Assembly (NCBI GenBank): GCA_045576355.1 | Contig: JAZNGG010000061.1 | Span: forward strand, 63,727 to 127,726 | DNA length: 64,000 bases | Reading direction: 5' to 3' | Source: Bacteroidales bacterium | Lineage (GTDB): Bacteria; Bacteroidota; Bacteroidia; Bacteroidales; UBA3663 | Part shown: in pieces, positions 42,831 to 61,490 of the stretch | Numbering within the stretch: the first letter of the stretch is position 1 | Layout of the letters: every line of letters begins with the position of its first letter | Made by a program: the position numbers and the translations under genes | Notes under the pieces: generated by a model | What the model was told of the DNA's origin: nothing | The model's input: the letters and a program-made list of their open reading frames with translations, nothing else | Databases searched by the model: none

Positions 42831-43050
42831 GGGGTTAGTAGGCGGTAGTTTAGAGGTTTAAGAGTTTGGAAGTTTAATAGATTAATAGTTTAATCACAGG
42901 TTATTAGTTTATGATTTCAACCCCAAAAAACGAAGAGTACAGATAACAGAGTACAGATAACAGATAACAGAGCAAAGCCATCTGCCATCGCAGGGCGTAG
43001 CCCCTCAACCCCTCAACCCTTCAACTTCTCAACCCTTCAACCAATAAACT
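42831..43050 (+). repeat. Intergenic repeat family, copy A
   Basis: GTTTAR-type 8-nt periodic tract (42845-42900); short tandem AGTACAGATAACAG x2 (about 42935-42970); core GCCATCTGCCATCGCAGGGCGTAGCCCC (42977-43004); then CCTCAAC-type tract to ~43045. Confidence 0.85.
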
Positions 43051-43071
43051 AAATACATATATATTTATATT

Positions 43072-44769
43072 ATGGCAACAGTTGACGACAAAAAAATCAT
43101 CTTCTCGATGGTCGGCCTTAACAAGACCATCAAACAAAACAACAAACAGGTATTAAAAAACATTTATCTGAGTTTTTTCTATGGCGCAAAGATCGGTATT
43201 ATCGGTCTTAATGGCTCCGGAAAGACCACATTGATGAAAATCATTGCCGGACTTGATAACGATTACCAAGGAGAGGTAGTGTTCTCACCCGGTTATACTG
43301 TGGGATATTTGGCACAGGAACCTTATCTTGCTCCCGGTAAAACTGTTAAGGATATCGTGATGGAGGGTGTTCAACCCATAGTTGATGCATTGGCTGAATA
43401 TGAATCAATCAATGAAAAATTCGGTCTCCCGGAGTATTATGAAGATCCGGATAAGATGGATGCATTATTTGCACGTCAGGCTGAATTGCAGGATGTCATT
43501 GATGCCACCGATGCCTGGAACCTCAATAGCAAACTTGAGAGAGCGATGGATGCCCTTCGTTGTCCTCCGGAAGATCAGTTAGTGGATCACCTCTCTGGTG
43601 GTGAGCGTCGCCGAGTGGCTCTCTGTCGGTTGCTTTTGCAAAAACCGGATGTCTTGTTGCTCGATGAACCGACCAACCATTTGGATGCAGAGTCTATAGA
43701 TTGGCTTGAACAACATCTCCAGCAGTATGAAGGTACGGTGATTGCTGTCACTCATGACCGCTACTTCCTGGATAATGTTGCCGGTTGGATTTTGGAATTG
43801 GATCGTGGAGAGGGTATCCCGTGGCAAGGTAATTATTCCTCATGGTTGGATCAGAAGACCCGTCGTATGGCACAGGAAGAAAAGACAGCCAGCAAGCGCA
43901 GGAAAACCCTTGAGCGTGAATTGGAGTGGGTGCGTATGGCTCCCAAGGCTCGTCAGGCTAAAGGTAAAGCCCGTCTGAATTCTTACGATAAGTTACTCAA
44001 TGAGGATGTTAAGGCTAAGGAAGAGAAACTCGAAATCTTCATCCCCAATGGTCCTCGTCTCGGCAACAAGGTAATTGAGGCTAAGGGCGTTGCTAAGGCC
44101 TATGGAGACAAATTGCTCTTTGATGATCTCAACTTTATGTTGCCACCCAACGGCATCGTAGGCGTTATCGGTCCTAATGGAGCCGGTAAAACCACACTTT
44201 TCCGTCTCATCATGGGACTTGAGGGAGCTGATCGAGGTGAGTTCGAAGTCGGAGAAACTGTCAAAGTTGCTTATGTGGATCAGCAGCATAAGGATATAGA
44301 TCCCAATAAGAGTGTCTATGAAGTTGTCAGCGGTGGCAGTGAGTTGATTCGCATCGGTGGTCGTGATGTCAATGCACGAGCCTATTTGTCTCGTTTTAAC
44401 TTCAGTGGTAGTGATCAGGAAAAACTCTGCGGTGTCCTATCCGGAGGAGAACGTAATCGTCTGCATTTGGCTATGGTGCTTAAAGAGGAGGGTAATGTCC
44501 TTTTGCTCGATGAACCGACCAATGATTTGGATGTCAATACTCTTCGCGCTTTAGAAGAGGGTCTTGATGCCTTTGCAGGCTGTGCCGTTGTCATCAGTCA
44601 TGACCGTTGGTTCTTAGATCGTATCTGTACTCACATCCTGGCTTATGAGGGAGACTCTAAGGTGTTCTTCTTTGAGGGATCCTATACCGAATACGAAGAG
44701 AATAAACTCAAACGTCTCGGCCGAGAGGAACCCAAACGTGTGCGTTATCGCAAACTAATGGACGATTAA
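43072..44769 (+). CDS. ettA: ABC-F translational throttle protein EttA
   Basis: Two ABC cassettes ('GLNGSGKTT' / 'GPNGAGKTT', 'LSGGERRRVAL' / 'LSGGERNRLHL'). The N-terminus 'VLKNIYLSFFYGAKIGIIG' closely recalls E. coli EttA. Confidence 0.9.
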   Translation: MATVDDKKIIFSMVGLNKTIKQNNKQVLKNIYLSFFYGAKIGIIGLNGSGKTTLMKIIAGLDNDYQGEVVFSPGYTVGYLAQEPYLAPGKTVKDIVMEGVQPIVDALAEYESINEKFGLPEYYEDPDKMDALFARQAELQDVIDATDAWNLNSKLERAMDALRCPPEDQLVDHLSGGERRRVALCRLLLQKPDVLLLDEPTNHLDAESIDWLEQHLQQYEGTVIAVTHDRYFLDNVAGWILELDRGEGIPWQGNYSSWLDQKTRRMAQEEKTASKRRKTLERELEWVRMAPKARQAKGKARLNSYDKLLNEDVKAKEEKLEIFIPNGPRLGNKVIEAKGVAKAYGDKLLFDDLNFMLPPNGIVGVIGPNGAGKTTLFRLIMGLEGADRGEFEVGETVKVAYVDQQHKDIDPNKSVYEVVSGGSELIRIGGRDVNARAYLSRFNFSGSDQEKLCGVLSGGERNRLHLAMVLKEEGNVLLLDEPTNDLDVNTLRALEEGLDAFAGCAVVISHDRWFLDRICTHILAYEGDSKVFFFEGSYTEYEENKLKRLGREEPKRVRYRKLMDD

Positions 44770-44810
44770 GAGTTTTCCGACGATAGTCGGTAATCGTATA
44801 TTTCTTATAA

Positions 44811-44853
44811 AGAGGCTGTGTCAAAATCTAAATTTTGGCGCAGTCTCTTTTTG
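44811..44853 (+). terminator. Intrinsic terminator 1 after ettA
   Basis: AGAGGCTGTG (44811-44820) pairs with CGCAGTCTCT (44839-44848), 10 bp including 2 G-U, then TTTTTG. Confidence 0.6.
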
Positions 44854-44859
44854 CATGTT

Positions 44860-44888
44860 AGAGGCTGTGAATATTTCAGTCTTTTTTT
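44860..44888 (+). terminator. Intrinsic terminator 2 after ettA
   Basis: AGAGGCTG (44860-44867) pairs with CAGTCTTT (44877-44884), merging into a T7 run. Confidence 0.55.
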
Positions 44889-45057
44889 GCACGAATGTAT
44901 TCTGAAATTTGTGAGAAGACATTCGAAATTATGTTGTAATGGAAATTTGAAAAAAGAGCCTGATTCGGGTAGGAATGAAAATTCGGTGTTAAAGTTATGT
45001 TAGAATTGCTTAACATAATTTTAATCAAAGAAGCGTTCTTCTTATTGAATAAAACGC

Positions 45058-45065
45058 TATTTTTG
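45058..45065 (+). promoter_or_regulatory. -7 box (TATTTTTG) for the RND efflux operon
   Basis: Exact TAnnTTTG, 139 nt upstream of the adaptor gene. Confidence 0.4.
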
Positions 45066-45203
45066 CAGTTAATCTTAGGATCAGTTATCGTAGAGATGGT
45101 ATGTTTCTTTATAAATTGAATCTTGATTCCTAAGGTTTTATGTAAGCGTTTTTCGTCCTGATAAATAAATTTATGTCATATCCTAAAAAATACTGAAAAA
45201 GCA

Positions 45204-60020: not shown

Positions 60021-60110
60021 AACCCTTAACTCTTCTACCCCTCAACTTCTCAACCTTTCAACTCTTCAACCAACCTGGCCATCTGCCATAGCAGGGCGTA
60101 GCCCTAAACC
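60021..60110 (+). repeat. Intergenic repeat family, copy D
   Basis: TCAAC-type tract (60021-60069) followed by CCAACCTGGCCATCTGCCATAGCAGGGCGTAGCCC (60070-60104). Confidence 0.9.
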
Positions 60111-60122
60111 TCACAATCTTTT

Positions 60123-60344
60123 TTAGTTGAGTTCTGTTTCGAGTTCTTGATATAAAGCGACAGGACCAAGATGCCACATTTTTGTGTTTTCCACTTTAAG
60201 TTTCTTATATAACTTTGAGCCGTAAATTGTTTTTATAGCATCTGTTATATTCATGCCTTTATATTCTACAAGCATACTTGCCAACCAACTTATTTTGGAT
60301 GGTAATAGCAGATATAGATTGCCTTGGTTAATTTCTCCTATCAT
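60123..60344 (-). CDS. Small helical protein, DUF3791-like (downstream partner)
   Basis: 73 aa. Its ATG overlaps the stop of the upstream gene in ATGA (60341-60344). The family name is from recollection of the DUF3791/DUF3990 gene pairing. Confidence 0.6.
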   Translation of the reverse strand: MIGEINQGNLYLLLPSKISWLASMLVEYKGMNITDAIKTIYGSKLYKKLKVENTKMWHLGPVALYQELETELN

Positions 60345-60823
60345 AATGTAACCTCCTTTGCTTCGATGAATTTCATGGTTTTTAAGGCCTTATCTGTGTG
60401 AAATAGATATTGGTCAACCAATTTGTATGCTTTTAATTCAGAGATAAGATTCTGTTTATTAATAATACCACCTTCATAGAGAGCAAATGCTGCATATACT
60501 TTGTCATTTGCCACAGGCCCATAAACAATATCAAAATCGTGATTGAAATCTTTGTTTGTACGATTATTCATCACAAAGTCAACCCATTCTTCTGTTGGTG
60601 AATTAAAAATCAAAGTGTTTAAATTCTTAATCAAATTCTCGTCAAATTCGTAAATATTAACGTAACCAACTTGGATGCTTGTATTCAATTTTCGTTTAAC
60701 CCAATCTTCTGCTTGCTTAAAAGATGTGGTTGTATAAAACCCGAAACCGTAATCCAAAGCTCTACCTGGGATGCGAATCTCAGGATTGTCAACAATTTCT
60801 ATACTTCCATGATAAAGAATCAT
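60341..60823 (-). CDS. DUF3990-like protein with PARP-like 'HGS' / 'GFGFYTT' motifs (putative ADP-ribosyltransferase fold)
   Basis: The ATG at 60823 (MILYHGS..) overlaps the upstream stop in ATGA. 160 aa with motifs 'LYHGS', 'DYGFGFYTT', 'YGPVANDKV', 'VDQYLFHT'. Confidence 0.65.
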   Translation of the reverse strand: MILYHGSIEIVDNPEIRIPGRALDYGFGFYTTTSFKQAEDWVKRKLNTSIQVGYVNIYEFDENLIKNLNTLIFNSPTEEWVDFVMNNRTNKDFNHDFDIVYGPVANDKVYAAFALYEGGIINKQNLISELKAYKLVDQYLFHTDKALKTMKFIEAKEVTL

Positions 60824-61044
60824 ATGCTTAGTTTTTTTCGGTCGTTTATAAATTCCTCGATATCCGCAACAAGCCATTGTCTGCTTTGGGTGTGGAGAAC
60901 ATCAAAATAATCTTTTAGATAGTCGAAAATGCCATACTTTGAAAATATCGAGATAGCCTCATCTTCGTTTATACCTTTTTCATTCATGTATTGTTCGATA
61001 CAGAATGAAATGAAATATGTTATATCTTTCAGATTTTTATCCAT
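60820..61044 (-). CDS. Small helical protein, DUF3791-like (upstream partner)
   Basis: 74 aa, 'ISFCIEQYMNEKGINEDEAISIF..YGIFDYLKDYFDVLHTQS'. It is the first gene of the triad. Confidence 0.6.
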   Translation of the reverse strand: MDKNLKDITYFISFCIEQYMNEKGINEDEAISIFSKYGIFDYLKDYFDVLHTQSRQWLVADIEEFINDRKKLSI

Positions 61045-61270
61045 AAGTTATATGGTTTTCTTGTTGTCAAACAAAAGTTCTCTCACACTAACTGATAATA
61101 TTCAGATATTTTATAAAGTAGCTCCAAAAATGGATGTTGTCTATTGCAACAATAGGCATTTATTATACTAAAACTCATTCTCAATTCATTTGCCAATTTT
61201 GGAAATGTCTCTTACTACTAAAACCGCCTTAATTCTATTAAGTTTCATACAAAGCGATTAACTATCAATG

Positions 61271-61278
61271 CAAAGATA
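61271..61278 (-). promoter_or_regulatory. -7 box (TATCTTTG on the minus strand) for the DUF3791/DUF3990 triad
   Basis: Plus-strand CAAAGATA. It is the only exact TAnnTTTG between 61045 and 61350 on that strand. Confidence 0.4.
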
Positions 61279-61360
61279 GTAATTAATTTTCTAAATATAG
61301 CATATTCTCGCATATTTATATTATCATCAAGACAAATAGCTTGGTTGTTCTAATCGCCCA

Positions 61361-61490
61361 GCCCTCGCCATAAGCCATATTAGGGCGTAGCCCCTTCAAC
61401 TCCTCAACTCTTCAGCCAACCTGGCCATCTGCCATAGCAGGGCGTAGCCCCTTAAACCCCTCAACTCCTCAACCAAAAAACCAATAAACC
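61361..61490 (+). repeat. Intergenic repeat family, copy E (two core+tract units)
   Basis: Degenerate core GCCATAAGCCATATTAGGGCGTAGCCCC (61367-61394) plus a TCAAC tract, then the exact 35-bp CCAACCTGGCC..GTAGCCC (61416-61450) plus a TCAAC tract. Confidence 0.9.

What the first reader, a model, noticed from the sequence alone, without database searches (positions are those of the whole stretch)
42831..61490. Intergenic repeat family: 27-bp GC-rich core plus 8-nt periodic TCAAC tracts, five loci in 19 kb
Seen: copies lie at 42831-43050 (A), 53793-54012 (B), 58111-58300 (C), 60021-60110 (D) and 61361-61490 (E). The shared parts are a core, GCCATCTGCCATAGCAGGGCGTAGCCC, and tracts of degenerate 7-8-nt units (CCTCAACC, CTTCAACC, AATCAACC). 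The core is exact in D and E, has one mismatch in A, and is reverse-complemented and duplicated in C. It contains the mini-hairpin GGGC-GTA-GCCC. Copies A and B additionally have an upstream tract of AGTTTARN units that loosely mirrors the TCAAC tract. In all five copies the TCAAC tract is on the + strand, while the core occurs in both orientations. All copies are strictly intergenic and abut stop or start codons. I do not recognise this as a described REP, BIME or MITE family.
Basis: seen in the sequence. Interest (0 to 1): 0.6.

Follow-up and report, generated by a model that had tools for sequence, protein, structure and literature searches.

The report
Hypervariable mosaic intergenic repeat family
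Five gaps between genes in this Bacteroidaceae chromosome hold copies of one fast-changing, non-coding repeat built from 8-base T(C/A)AAC units and small GC hairpins; it behaves like the mobile or mosaic "junk" repeats known from other bacteria, and matching modules sit between genes of some phage contigs.

Summary
The 27-nt core occurs four times plus two degenerate copies (0 expected). 8-nt-periodic T(C/A)AAC tracts give 19 overlapping matches (0 expected), all within 42.8-61.5 kb. Correction: copy B lacks the 27-nt core and has a different centre.

Best reading: a non-coding MITE/BIME-like mosaic repeat. The full module (A, B) has two inverted arms of octamer units around a centre with a C-GNA-G mini-hairpin. 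C, D and E are partial or duplicated derivatives.

Evidence from other strains:
- The only two internal indels in 10.9 kb are +16 and -32 nt, both inside tracts.
- At the site upstream of the nagB promoter, the window plus five sister contigs carry five different sets of cores and units.
- Short-read contigs start or stop inside the repeats.
- The element diverges faster than neighbouring synonymous sites.
- D and E share a 55-nt direct repeat and bracket most of a strain-specific 1.75-kb segment.

A profile of 38 phage intergenic modules hits B at E=9e-12. One such 192-nt module is precisely present or absent among 96-97% identical phage contigs.

No Rfam or literature match. Function and mobilising protein are unknown. 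Controls show that octamer arrays as such are not specific to TCAAC. Moderate interest.

The parts
42823..43071 (.). Copy A, a full module filling the dciA-like/ettA intergenic gap. Left arm of TAAAC-type octamers read on the - strand (42838-42905). 7/14-nt AGAGTACAGATAAC repeats (42934-42972). Type-1 core (42977-43003, hairpin GGGC-GTA-GCCC at 42993-43003). Right arm of TCAAC octamers (43002-43049).
   Evidence: Present in 10 other strain contigs, with a variable number of units, 7/14-nt repeats and cores.
53789..54015 (.). Copy B, a full module between the 902-aa gene and the DUF5689 gene. Left arm of 12-13 TAAAC octamers on the - strand (53794-53898). Type-2 centre (53899-53943, with GCGAAGC at 53917-53923). 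Right arm of TMAAC octamers inside an 87-nt G-free stretch (53944-54012). No 27-nt core.
   Evidence: The phage-module profile hits 53860-53983 at E=9e-12, covering both arms and the centre. The left arm is 32 nt shorter in strain contig L001.
58111..58307 (.). Copy C, in the 3' untranslated region of the endonuclease gene, upstream of its terminator hairpin (58314-58368). Short inverted arm (58114-58131). Reversed type-1 core with a GCCATN-hexamer extension (58132-58173). Tract (58181-58204). Reversed degenerate core (58210-58252). Tract (58252-58300). This amounts to a 79-nt unit duplicated in tandem.
   Evidence: period 79, 2 copies, 87%; D6, I1, I10. The + strand RNA fold has z=-3.5. At the same site, sister-lineage contig L378 has two type-2 cores upstream of the shared tract.
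59797..59864 (+). 22-nt x3 tandem repeat (TCGTTACATCACACGCGTAGCC) that shares the octamer GCGTAGCC with the type-1 core. It lies inside the strain-specific segment.
   Evidence: (D9).
60023..60110 (+). Copy D: a tract of 6 octamers (60023-60071), a CAACCTG linker, an exact type-1 core (60078-60104), then TAAACC. It abuts the stop codon of the - strand 73-aa ORF.
   Evidence: D4.
59700..61450 (.). Strain-specific 1.75-kb segment, absent from five sister-lineage contigs. It contains the 22-nt repeat, D, the 73-aa ORF, the DUF3990 and DUF3791 genes (- strand) and E1. Its right part (about 1.35 kb, from D onward) is bracketed by a 55-nt direct repeat of tract plus core (60050-60104 and 61396-61450, 93% identical).
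   Evidence: alignments stop at 59699 and resume at about 61450; D4; Pfam.
61361..61490 (+). Copy E, a 57-nt [core + tract] unit duplicated in tandem. E1 is a degenerate core (61367-61393) plus tract (61394-61417). E2 is an exact core (61424-61450) plus tract (61450-61489). It ends at the -33 box of the nagB promoter.
   Evidence: period 57, 84%; D8. The module content at this site differs among the window and five sister contigs (five variants; L380 and L381 identical), while the promoter is invariant.
61498..61528 (+). Context: a Bacteroides-type promoter (TTTG-N19-TATCTTTG) for nagB, invariant among strains and lying immediately 3' of the variable repeat.
   Evidence: regex; alignment. The consensus is from my own knowledge of Bacteroides sigma-A promoters.

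Best explanation
The five loci are copies and fragments of one non-coding, non-autonomous repeat family of the MITE/BIME kind, specific to this Bacteroidaceae lineage.

The basic module (A, B; about 230-250 nt) is a long imperfect palindrome. Each arm is a head-to-tail array of 8-nt units, YNN-T(C/A)AAC. The short centre carries a GC mini-hairpin with a G-N-A loop. C, D and E are solo arms with one or two cores, duplicated in tandem.

Shown:
- The elements fill whole intergenic gaps and do not code.
- The arrays gain and lose units in 8-nt steps.
- Cores of at least two types are duplicated, inverted and swapped between strains at one and the same site.
- The sequence diverges faster than synonymous sites next door.
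- Direct copies bracket most of a strain-specific 1.75-kb segment.
- A module of the same architecture is precisely present or absent among near-identical phage contigs.

Inferred:
- Spread is by insertion of whole modules, through an unidentified protein that reads the pentamer every 8 bp in the arms.
- After insertion, replication slippage, unequal recombination and gene conversion act between copies.
- Copies A, B and C are co-transcribed with their neighbours. Any effect on expression (structured or G-free spacer RNA, altered promoter-upstream spacing at nagB) is a by-product, not the reason the family exists.
For: Real and non-random:
-.

Non-coding and slippage-prone:
- Window against strain contig L001 over 10.9 kb shows 42 SNPs.
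- Only two internal indels occur: +16 nt in the A tract and -32 nt in the B left arm.

Multi-copy:
- Contigs from independent assemblies begin or end inside A, B, C or E.

Mosaic turnover:
- At the nagB-upstream site the window and five sister contigs show five arrangements of type-1 and type-2 cores and 5-11 units (L380 and L381 are identical).
- The promoter immediately 3' is invariant.
- At the C site, sister strain L378 has type-2 cores where the window has reversed type-1 cores.
- Strain L603 has a duplicated core in A.

Fast evolution:
- In five near-identical strains there is 1 difference in about 3.9 kb of recF/dciA, against 12 differences in 550 nt of the element.
- In the divergent strains the figures are 6.2% at third codon positions against 10.9% in the element.

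Heterogeneous contexts, as for REP/BIME:
- Inside operons (A, B), a 3' UTR before a terminator (C), next to the 3' end of a gene on the opposite strand (D), and upstream of a promoter (E).
- There is no common RNA fold. A and B fold better on the antisense strand, C on the sense strand, and D and E on neither.

Cassette association:
- A 55-nt direct repeat in D and E brackets most of a 1.75-kb segment that five sister contigs lack.

Mobility of the architecture:
- An nhmmer profile of 38 phage modules hits only the repeat loci in the window, with B at E=9e-12.
- A 192-nt module in L154 is exactly absent from L120, L121, L135, L141 and L150, which are 96-97% identical.
- A roughly 190-nt element with true terminal inverted repeats and subterminal GTTGA/TCAAC octamer arrays recurs at unrelated loci in marine metagenomes.

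Hairpins:
- All loops are G-N-A (GTA, GCA, GAA).
- Stem changes are paired: GGGC/GCCC to GGAC/GTCC, GC-GNA-GC to GT-GCA-AC, and CTGC/GCAG to TTGC/GCAA.
Against: - No transposase or RAYT was found. None lies among the 10 ORFs scanned in the window, and none lies between far-apart inverted arrays in fetched loci.
- No empty site was found for A. It is present in all 10 other strain contigs (the nine and L001).
- No target-site duplication could be defined in the window. The phage case allows at most a 'TT'.
- Genome-wide copy number is unknown. The source genome is not in the representative collection in this form.
- The centre-only profile of the phage modules does not hit the window. Kinship with the phage modules therefore rests on the arms and overall layout, which are low-complexity.
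- T..AAC is conserved while the spacers drift, and arm mismatches are not compensated. This points to a protein-binding function that could be regulatory rather than transpositional.
- Mini-hairpin energies are not significant against shuffles, and the covariation rests on a handful of sequences.
- Some strain differences near contig ends may be short-read assembly errors.
Confidence: 0.6

Rival explanations
1. The octamer arrays are cis-regulatory binding platforms on double-stranded DNA. A host- or prophage-encoded protein would read one T(C/A)AAC pentamer every 8 bp and coat direct and inverted arrays. This would resemble ribbon-helix-helix operators and centromeres (MetJ met-boxes, ParG parH, omega heptads) or mycobacteriophage 'stoperators'. 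The repeats would persist because they regulate the flanking genes.
For: - Positions T..AAC are kept in 33-38 of 43 units, while the 3-nt spacers vary.
- TCAAC/TAAAC differences between the arms are not compensated, so arm pairing is not what is conserved.
- Arrays occur in both direct and inverted arrangement: 86 of 244 fetched TMAAC arrays have an inverted partner within 250 nt.
- In phage contig L163 a module precedes many genes (five modules at gene boundaries in the first 7 kb).
- At E the array ends exactly at the -33 box of the nagB promoter.
- The 8-bp phasing of RHH operators is from my own knowledge and was not tested.
Against: - No candidate protein was identified.
- Contexts are heterogeneous, including a 3' UTR and a site beside the 3' end of an opposite-strand gene.
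- Unit number and even core type differ freely between near-identical strains, and the element evolves faster than synonymous sites. That is not expected of a tuned operator.
- Related Bacteroides-like genomes have no arrays at the ettA locus.
Confidence: 0.2
2. The tracts are plain octanucleotide microsatellites (VNTRs) that arose locally by slippage, and the GC cores are unrelated local sequence. There would be no mobility and no family-level function.
For: - Indels are exact multiples of 8.
- Octamer arrays of arbitrary pentamers are about as common in viral contigs as TCAAC arrays. CTACA gave 80 loci and ACCTA 115, against 120 or more for TCAAC.
- With pyrimidine spacers the counts were 47 against 30 and 29 for permuted cores.
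Against: - The same 27-nt core, and a 55-nt core-plus-tract block, recur at separate loci in both orientations.
- Cores are exchanged between strains at fixed sites.
- Arms come as inverted pairs around a centre.
- Whole modules are present or absent in phage contigs.
- Slippage alone does not place the same composite at five loci.
Confidence: 0.1
3. The function is at the RNA level. The transcribed, G-free, C-rich tracts (50-87 nt) upstream of ettA and the DUF5689 gene and in the endonuclease 3' UTR would act as unstructured leaders. Possible roles are ribosome standby or translation enhancement in a phylum that lacks Shine-Dalgarno use, Rho loading sites, or tandem boxA-like Nus-factor sites next to a boxB-like hairpin. 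The G-rich arm would mask them.
For: - A and B tracts end 13-22 nt before the ATG, and no Bacteroides-type promoter lies between tract and start, so they are probably transcribed with the upstream genes.
- B has an 87-nt G-free stretch.
- In viral contigs, 21 of 49 scored TCAAC arrays end within 30 nt of a start codon, against 6/26 and 6/38 for the controls.
- TAACTGA heptamer arrays upstream of start codons have been proposed as post-transcriptional sites (PMC4679880).
- The resemblance of CTCTTAAAC units to lambda and rrn boxA is recalled from memory and was not tested.
Against: - D lies antisense beside a convergent gene, and E lies upstream of the promoter, so two of the five copies are not in a sense leader.
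- In phage contig L154 arrays also occur in the GTTGA orientation on the mRNA strand.
- The metagenome arrays show no orientation bias (46 against 44).
- There is no conserved fold.
- Sequence turnover is fast.
Confidence: 0.08
4. The pattern is an artefact or is coding: either an assembly artefact of the window or a low-complexity Pro/Ser/Thr-rich protein segment.
For: The tracts are free of stop codons in some frames, and a 108-aa ORF (58147-58473) runs through C.
Against: - The same elements are found at the same sites in 16 independent contigs from other samples.
- Indels of 16 and 32 nt destroy any frame.
- The 108-aa ORF reads through a terminator hairpin and a promoter.
Confidence: 0.01

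Closest known systems
REP/BIME elements of enterobacteria and pseudomonads (with RAYT transposases, REPINs)
   Same: - Short GC hairpins dispersed in transcribed intergenic gaps.
- Clustered into mosaics with linker motifs.
- Number and orientation vary between strains.
- They break short-read assemblies.
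- The core contains GTAG (in GGGCGTAGCCC).
   Different: - The hairpin stem is only 4 bp, and GTAG sits in the loop and stem rather than 5' of a 20-40-nt palindrome.
- Clustered cores are direct (C, E), not alternating.
- The 'linkers' are 8-nt-periodic arrays that themselves form the long inverted arms.
- No RAYT gene was seen.
- Copy number is unknown.
Neisseria Correia elements (CREE) and NIMEs; pneumococcal BOX elements (own knowledge)
   Same: - Non-autonomous elements of about 100-250 nt with inverted ends, inserted between genes and co-transcribed.
- Modular build with a variable number of internal units (boxB; RS units between dRS3).
- Strain polymorphism.
   Different: - Correia elements have defined 26-bp TIRs and a TA duplication. 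Here the arms are degenerate octamer arrays and no duplication could be defined.
- There is no sequence similarity.
- RNase III processing was not tested.
BrickBuilt MITE with internal minisatellite of Porphyromonas gingivalis (PMC4596501; title and abstract only)
   Same: A Bacteroidota intergenic MITE that contains a tandem-repeat array of variable copy number.
   Different: The published title and abstract place the tandem array (a minisatellite) inside the MITE. Here the tandem units are 8 nt and make up the arms, and the GC cores are interchangeable. No sequence comparison was possible.
Promoter-early stem-loop (PeSL) mobile regulatory cassettes of T4-type phages (PMC2839356, PMC4122927; abstracts)
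   Same: - Repeated stem-loop-containing intergenic cassettes at gene boundaries of phage genomes.
- Associated with insertion, deletion and replacement of gene modules.
- Compare the modules at many gene boundaries in L163, the indel in L154, and D/E bracketing most of a strain-specific segment.
   Different: - PeSLs are promoter-terminator composites of T4-like myoviruses.
- The modules here show no Bacteroides-type promoter motif in the module sequences read.
- They occur in siphovirus-like contigs and in a bacterial chromosome.
- Their arms are octamer arrays.
Intergenic TAACTGA heptamer direct repeats of Beggiatoaceae, Cyanobacteria and some Bacteroidetes (PMC4679880); cyanobacterial STRR heptamers (own knowledge)
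   Same: - Short tandem units confined to intergenic DNA.
- Often in 'forward' orientation just upstream of start codons.
- Strain indels in multiples of the unit.
- No known mechanism or binding protein.
   Different: - The unit there is 7 nt, not 8, with a different motif.
- Those arrays are described as direct repeats, with no inverted partner arm and no associated GC cores.
Ribbon-helix-helix operator/centromere arrays (MetJ 8-bp met-boxes, ParG parH 4+4-bp boxes, omega 7-bp heptads; own knowledge)
   Same: Contiguous short units with a conserved 4-5-bp core and a variable spacer, phased every 7-8 bp, in direct and inverted arrays.
   Different: Those are single loci next to the regulated operon with a known cognate protein. 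Here there are five dispersed, rapidly changing loci and no cognate protein.

Membership tests
MITE (miniature inverted-repeat transposable element) | Small (about 50-500 bp) non-coding element with terminal inverted repeats | tested here: met
   A (249 nt) and B (232 nt) have inverted arms of octamer units. The arms are imperfect, with one mismatch per unit. C, D and E are partial.
MITE (miniature inverted-repeat transposable element) | Target-site duplication flanking the element | tested here: inconclusive
   No empty site is available for A-E. In the phage indel (L154 against L120 and others) the junctions allow a 2-nt TT duplication or none.
MITE (miniature inverted-repeat transposable element) | Presence/absence (insertion) polymorphism of the whole element between close relatives | tested here: inconclusive
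   Met for a phage module of the same architecture (192 nt). In the window lineage only sub-modules (cores, units) come and go. A is present in all 10 other strain contigs.
MITE (miniature inverted-repeat transposable element) | Cognate autonomous element or transposase with matching ends | tested here: not met
   None among the 10 window ORFs scanned. No transposase lies between distant inverted arrays in fetched loci. The whole genome was not available.
REP / REPIN (RAYT-associated) | 20-40-nt imperfect palindrome preceded by a conserved GTAG | tested here: not met
   The core has a 4-bp stem, GGGC-GTA-GCCC, with GTAG spanning loop and stem. A second 4-bp hairpin, CTGC-CATA-GCAG, lies upstream.
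REP / REPIN (RAYT-associated) | Hundreds of copies per genome and a RAYT gene flanked by REPs | not testable with these tools
   Only 64 kb of the genome is available. The core is absent from the representative genome collection.
BIME | Clusters of REPs in alternating orientation separated by conserved linkers | tested here: not met
   Clustered cores are in direct orientation: C has two reversed cores and E has two forward cores. Mixed orientation is seen only in sister contigs, with different core types.
Simple-sequence repeat / VNTR | Head-to-tail units with strain length variation in whole units | tested here: met
   TRF reports period 8/16. Indels are +16 and -32 nt, and unit number is variable at the nagB site. 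This describes the tracts only, not the composite.
Integron attC site | Imperfect palindrome reading 5'-RYYYAAC...GTTRRRY-3' at cassette ends | tested here: not met
   The units resemble the core sites, but the modules read 5'-(GTTKARRR)n...(YYYTMAAC)n-3' on both strands, which is the opposite polarity. No integron integrase was seen among the ORFs scanned. The consensus is from my own knowledge.
Any Rfam RNA family | Covariance-model match at or near the gathering score | tested here: not met
   In gathering mode the only hit is a tRNA at 39711-39783. In E-value mode over the repeat regions there is nothing, apart from one chance snoRNA hit far below threshold.
TAACTGA / STRR heptamer arrays | 7-nt unit with the TAACTGA (or STRR) motif | tested here: not met
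   The unit is 8 nt, YNN-T(C/A)AAC.

The most novel reading that the evidence does not exclude
Palindromic modules whose arms are arrays of a pentamer repeated every 8 bp, flanking a G-N-A-loop mini-hairpin, form an undescribed class of mobile intergenic cassette. The class would be shared by Bacteroidota chromosomes and their siphophages, with analogues in unrelated marine bacteria. The arrays would be multi-site landing pads for an unidentified transposase or regulator. The modules would mark gene boundaries and act as joints for exchanging gene cassettes, such as the DUF3791/DUF3990 segment between D and E.
Probability: 0.25. Interest if true: 0.65.

Novelty: new member of a known kind. Interest (0 to 1): 0.45.

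Why it matters
- The family explains why short-read assemblies of this Bacteroidaceae lineage fragment at these gene boundaries.
- It provides fast strain markers, because arrays change in 8-nt steps and cores are swappable.
- It marks places where gene content differs between strains.

If the arms prove to be binding arrays for a specific protein, the family would be a tractable model for two questions. One is how dispersed repeats spread between phages and chromosomes in gut Bacteroidota. The other is whether such repeats tune expression of neighbouring genes. An example is nagB, whose invariant promoter sits directly against a hypervariable array.

Tried and rejected
1. Representative genomes. 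I scanned them with GCCATNNNAGGGCGTAGCCC and got 68 hits. All are chance matches, mostly in high-GC DNA, and none has TCAAC tracts.
2. Exact core. The 27-mer is absent from viral contigs and JGI metagenomes.
3. 'TCAAC arrays are a special universal signal'. Rejected. Permuted or unrelated pentamers give comparable numbers of 8-nt-period arrays: 80 and 115 against 120 or more, and 30 and 29 against 47 with pyrimidine spacers. Roughly half of the 47 TMAAC-YYY hits come from one phage group.
4. Orientation relative to genes in about 230 fetched arrays. The bias is only modest and not motif-specific, and there is none in the metagenome set.
5. Homology of B's centre to the phage module centre. A regex built after looking at both found B plus the phage group, but a centre-only HMM finds nothing in the window. 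I therefore claim only shared arms and layout.
6. A common RNA structure. Rejected by strand-inconsistent folds.
7. Mini-hairpin stability. Not significant against shuffles with nearest-neighbour DNA parameters.
8. N-terminally extended EttA homologues as a sign of upstream tracts. The extensions are unrelated sequence or assembly duplications.
9. Empty-site comparison in Bacteroides-like relatives. Synteny differs and there are no arrays.
10. Known phages. There is no nucleotide match to A. The tape-measure protein only places L163 among siphoviruses with Flavobacterium, Porphyromonas and other relatives.
11. Literature. String and keyword searches found no description. One 2026 preprint listed by the search could not be opened.
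12. Exact-protein look-ups. The endonuclease and the DUF5689 protein found nothing.

Full report
**1. What is in the window**

I read the five loci directly.

*Core.* The 27-nt core GCCATCTGCCATAGCAGGGCGTAGCCC lies at 42977 (+, one mismatch), 58132 (-), 60078 (+) and 61424 (+). No match occurred in 100 shuffles. Degenerate copies lie at 58210-58240 (-) and 61367-61393 (+).

*Tracts.* Runs of T[CA]AAC spaced exactly 8 nt apart lie on the + strand at all five loci. TMAAC-N3 x4 gives 19 overlapping matches against 0 expected. Nothing of the kind occurs in 1-42 kb.

*Unit consensus.* Stacking 43 units in register gives YNN-T-(C/A)-A-A-C. T, A, A and C are kept in 33-38 of 43 units. The three spacer positions vary (CCC, TCT, CAA, TTC and others).

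*Corrections.* B has no 27-nt core. Its centre is a different sequence, which I call type-2 (CCTCAGCACGCGAAGCCCACGACCAAAGGGAGTAAC) and which is unique in the window.

*Larger units.* C is a 79-nt [reversed core + tract] unit duplicated in tandem. E is a 57-nt [core + tract] unit duplicated in tandem.

*A sixth related locus.* GCGTAGCC, the 3' part of the core, occurs 9 times against 0.46 expected.

**2. Context**

*Organism.* The EttA-like protein is about 91% identical to Bacteroides and Phocaeicola EttA, so the organism is a Bacteroidaceae.

*Gene order*:
- recF, a DciA-like gene, then [A]
- ettA, an RND efflux operon, a 902-aa gene, then [B]
- a DUF5689 gene, a 730-aa gene, a non-specific endonuclease, then [C] and a terminator hairpin (58314-58368)
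- a promoter, an SBF-type transporter, a unique segment, then [D]
- a 73-aa ORF, DUF3990 and DUF3791 (on the - strand), then [E]
- a promoter (61498-61528) and nagB (ATG at 61877)

*Position of the copies.* A, B and C begin directly after stop codons. No Bacteroides-type -7 box lies between A or B and the next start codon. A, B and C are therefore probably transcribed as part of mRNAs.

*Strand.* GC skew is positive throughout, so the + strand is the leading strand. In this window, gene direction and replication direction cannot be separated.

**3. Not RNA genes, not coding, no common fold**

- Rfam gives only a tRNA at gathering threshold, and nothing meaningful in E-value mode over the repeats.
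- As RNA, A and B form a long imperfect hairpin that is significant only on the antisense strand (z -3.7 and -4.3, against -1.4 on the sense strand).
- C is structured on the sense strand (z -3.5). D and E are not structured on either strand.
- Arm pairing fails once per unit, because left arms carry TAAAC where right arms carry TCAAC. That difference is not compensated.

**4. Other strains**

*A-to-B interval.* The exact EttA protein is found on one other contig, L001 from sample DRR768612. Its two ends fall inside A and B. Over 10.9 kb it differs from the window by 42 SNPs. It has only two internal indels: +16 nt in the A tract and -32 nt in the B left arm.

*nagB region.* The exact NagB protein is found on five contigs of a sister lineage with 93-94% nucleotide identity.
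- Four of them start inside the C tract and one starts inside the E-site tract.
- In these contigs the transporter gene is followed after 540-700 nt by nagB. Window 59700-61450 is therefore strain-specific.
- Its right part (about 1.35 kb, from D onward) is bracketed by a 55-nt direct repeat of tract plus core in D and E (93% identical).

*Site upstream of the nagB promoter.* The promoter is invariant, but the window and five sister contigs carry five different arrangements:

| Contig | Content upstream of the promoter |
|---|---|
| L377 | one type-2 core plus tract |
| L378 | type-2, reversed type-1-like core, type-2 |
| L380, L381 | as L378, with a different number of units |
| L379 | at least one type-2 core plus 11 units |
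| window | two forward type-1 cores |

*C site.* L378 has two type-2 cores where the window has two reversed type-1 cores.

*A site.* The exact DciA-like protein retrieves eight more contigs (nine were read). Seven stop inside A.
- The left arm is retained.
- The 7/14-nt AGAGTACAGATAAC repeat varies in copy number.
- L603 has a duplicated core.

*Rate of change*.
- In five near-identical strains there is 1 difference in about 3.9 kb of flanking coding DNA, against 12 in 550 nt of the element.
- In the two divergent strains the values are 6.2% at third codon positions against 10.9% in the element.
- Some of this could be assembly noise near contig ends.

**5. The mini-hairpins**

- All loops are G-N-A closed by C and G: GGGC-GTA-GCCC, GGGC-GCA-GCCC, GGGC-GAA-GCCC and GGAC-GAA-GTCC in type-1 cores.
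- Type-2 cores have GC-GAA-GC, GC-GCA-GC and GT-GCA-AC.
- Two of these changes are paired stem changes.
- A second 4-bp hairpin just upstream also shows one paired change: CTGC-CATA-GCAG in the window against TTGC-CATA-GCAA in the sister lineage.
- From my own knowledge, d(GCGNAGC)-type hairpins are unusually stable in single-stranded DNA.
- With standard parameters, however, the energies are not significant, and the number of sequences is small. I count this as suggestive only.

**6. Beyond this lineage**

*The core.* It is lineage-specific. All 68 hits of a relaxed 20-mer in 185,579 representative genomes are chance matches without tracts. The 27-mer is absent from viral contigs and JGI metagenomes. 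Bacteroides-like relatives have no arrays around ettA.

*The tracts.* They are not lineage-specific. TCAAC-N3 x4 hits at least 120 viral contigs. TCAACCAATAAAC-N3-TCAAC hits at least 120 metagenome contigs.

*Controls temper this.* Unrelated pentamers at the same spacing give 80 and 115 viral loci. With pyrimidine spacers the counts are 47 against 30 and 29. Orientation toward genes is only weakly biased. Octamer arrays as such are therefore common and not TCAAC-specific.

**7. Three informative cases**

(a) *A group of siphovirus-like contigs.* These come mostly from IMG sample 3300045988. They have tape-measure homologues in Flavobacterium, Porphyromonas and other phages, lambdoid replication and recombination genes, and start codons without Shine-Dalgarno sequences.
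- They carry the following module at many gene boundaries: a (GTTGAnnn)n arm, a centre with an AGAGG-TTA-CCTCT hairpin, a (nnnT[CAT]AAC)n arm, often a second array, then ATG.
- An nhmmer profile of 38 such modules hits only the repeat loci in the window. B scores E=9e-12 across both arms and the centre.
- A centre-only profile finds nothing.

(b) *A present/absent module.* In L154 a 192-nt module is exactly absent from five contigs that are 96-97% identical.
- Empty site: ..aatcatt|attccttg..
- The module is therefore a discrete insertion/deletion unit.
- Another homology breakpoint, with L167, falls at an array.

(c) *A marine MITE.* In marine-sediment metagenomes a roughly 190-nt element recurs at unrelated loci.
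- It has true terminal inverted repeats (CAGAyaTCGTTGA...TCAACGAGGTCTG).
- Its subterminal regions are inverted GTTGA/TCAAC octamer arrays.
- It is a MITE with the same layout in an unrelated lineage.

Control-motif arrays (CTACA) also occur as inverted pairs.

**8. Interpretation**

The window's elements are best read as a lineage-specific, non-autonomous MITE/BIME-like mosaic family.

Five lines of evidence support this reading:
- dispersed shared composites in both orientations
- whole intergenic gaps filled in heterogeneous contexts
- 8-nt slippage
- exchange and duplication of cores at fixed sites
- divergence faster than silent sites

Two more come from context: the association with a strain-specific segment, and the demonstrated insertion/deletion of a module of the same architecture in phages.

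Several things remain unknown or inferred: the mobilising protein, any target duplication, the copy number, and whether transcribed copies have effects.

The selective retention of T..AAC every 8 nt is not explained by arm pairing. It argues for a protein that reads the arrays. This could be a transposase or a regulator (for example of the ribbon-helix-helix type, from memory). That is the main rival, and it is partly compatible with the best explanation.

**9. Comparison with known families**

- The family fails the defining tests for REP (palindrome length, GTAG position), BIME (alternating REPs), attC (polarity) and the TAACTGA/STRR heptamers (unit length).
- It matches no Rfam family.
- It meets the size and inverted-repeat criteria of a MITE, but not yet the criteria of target duplication or a cognate transposase.
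- It works most like BIME/NIME/BOX-type mosaics and Correia-type MITEs. In phages it works like PeSL cassettes.
- I found no description of it in the open literature searched.

**10. Verdict**

This is a real, new member of a known kind of element. Interest is moderate. It would rise if the octamer arrays prove to be the binding platform of a specific protein shared between Bacteroidota phages and chromosomes.

Noticed in passing
L395, L404, L406, L410, L411, L415, L424, L431, L433, L458, L459, L485, L497 (about 190 nt around each match): A conserved element of about 190 nt recurs at unrelated loci in marine-sediment metagenome contigs. It has terminal inverted repeats (CAGAyaTCGTTGA...TCAACGAGGTCTG), subterminal inverted GTTGA/TCAAC octamer arrays, a central AAATATGG..CCATATTT palindrome and a TATAAT box. 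It looks like an undescribed MITE, possibly carrying an outward promoter.
   Followed up: partly
L154:10976-11167 against L120, L121, L135, L141, L150: A 192-nt palindromic octamer-array module is precisely present or absent among 96-97% identical phage contigs. The junction allows a TT duplication. In L163, five such modules lie at gene boundaries in the first 7 kb.
   Followed up: yes
window 59700-60020: The strain-specific non-coding stretch after the transporter gene contains a 22-nt x3 repeat with GCGTAGCC, a direct repeat GGGGTATTT(T/C)..CGCGTCG on either side, and a terminator-like hairpin at 59889-59928 followed by T7. The origin of this segment is unknown.
   Followed up: partly
window 60123-61044 (- strand): A DUF3791, DUF3990 and 73-aa ORF cassette is present in the window but absent from five sister-lineage contigs. 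Most of the strain-specific segment that contains it is bracketed by 55-nt direct repeats in D and E.
   Followed up: partly
window 61530-61876: The nagB leader is about 350 nt long between its promoter and the ATG. It is conserved in the sister lineage and has no Rfam match. It could hold an uncharacterised regulatory RNA or a small ORF.
   Followed up: no
window 62859-63363; L377:2933-3041: A RelB/ParD-like antitoxin and a YafQ/RelE-like toxin pair lie downstream of nagB in the window. Sister contigs instead continue into an IspD/polysaccharide locus and keep only a 109-nt, 76%-identical remnant of the antitoxin gene.
   Followed up: no
window 44769-51084 against L502-L508: In Bacteroides-like relatives, ettA is followed directly by a CarboxypepD_reg/Plug (TonB-dependent receptor-like) gene of about 900 aa. 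In the window an RND efflux operon (45204-50794) lies between ettA and the 902-aa gene, with no repeat copies at its borders.
   Followed up: no
window 16072-16280: A CAA/CAG-rich in-frame tandem repeat (Gln-rich low-complexity region, periods 9-33 nt) lies inside the ORF 15615-16391.
   Followed up: no
window 55152-55344 and 55686-55875: There is an internal duplication (74-77% nucleotide identity) within the 730-aa protein gene, indicating two tandem domains of unknown family. Pfam gives no hit.
   Followed up: no
L198, L250 (control scans): Arrays of an unrelated pentamer (CTACA every 8 nt) also occur as inverted pairs 70-90 nt apart in viral contigs. Inverted octamer-array modules therefore exist with different core motifs in different lineages.
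   Followed up: no
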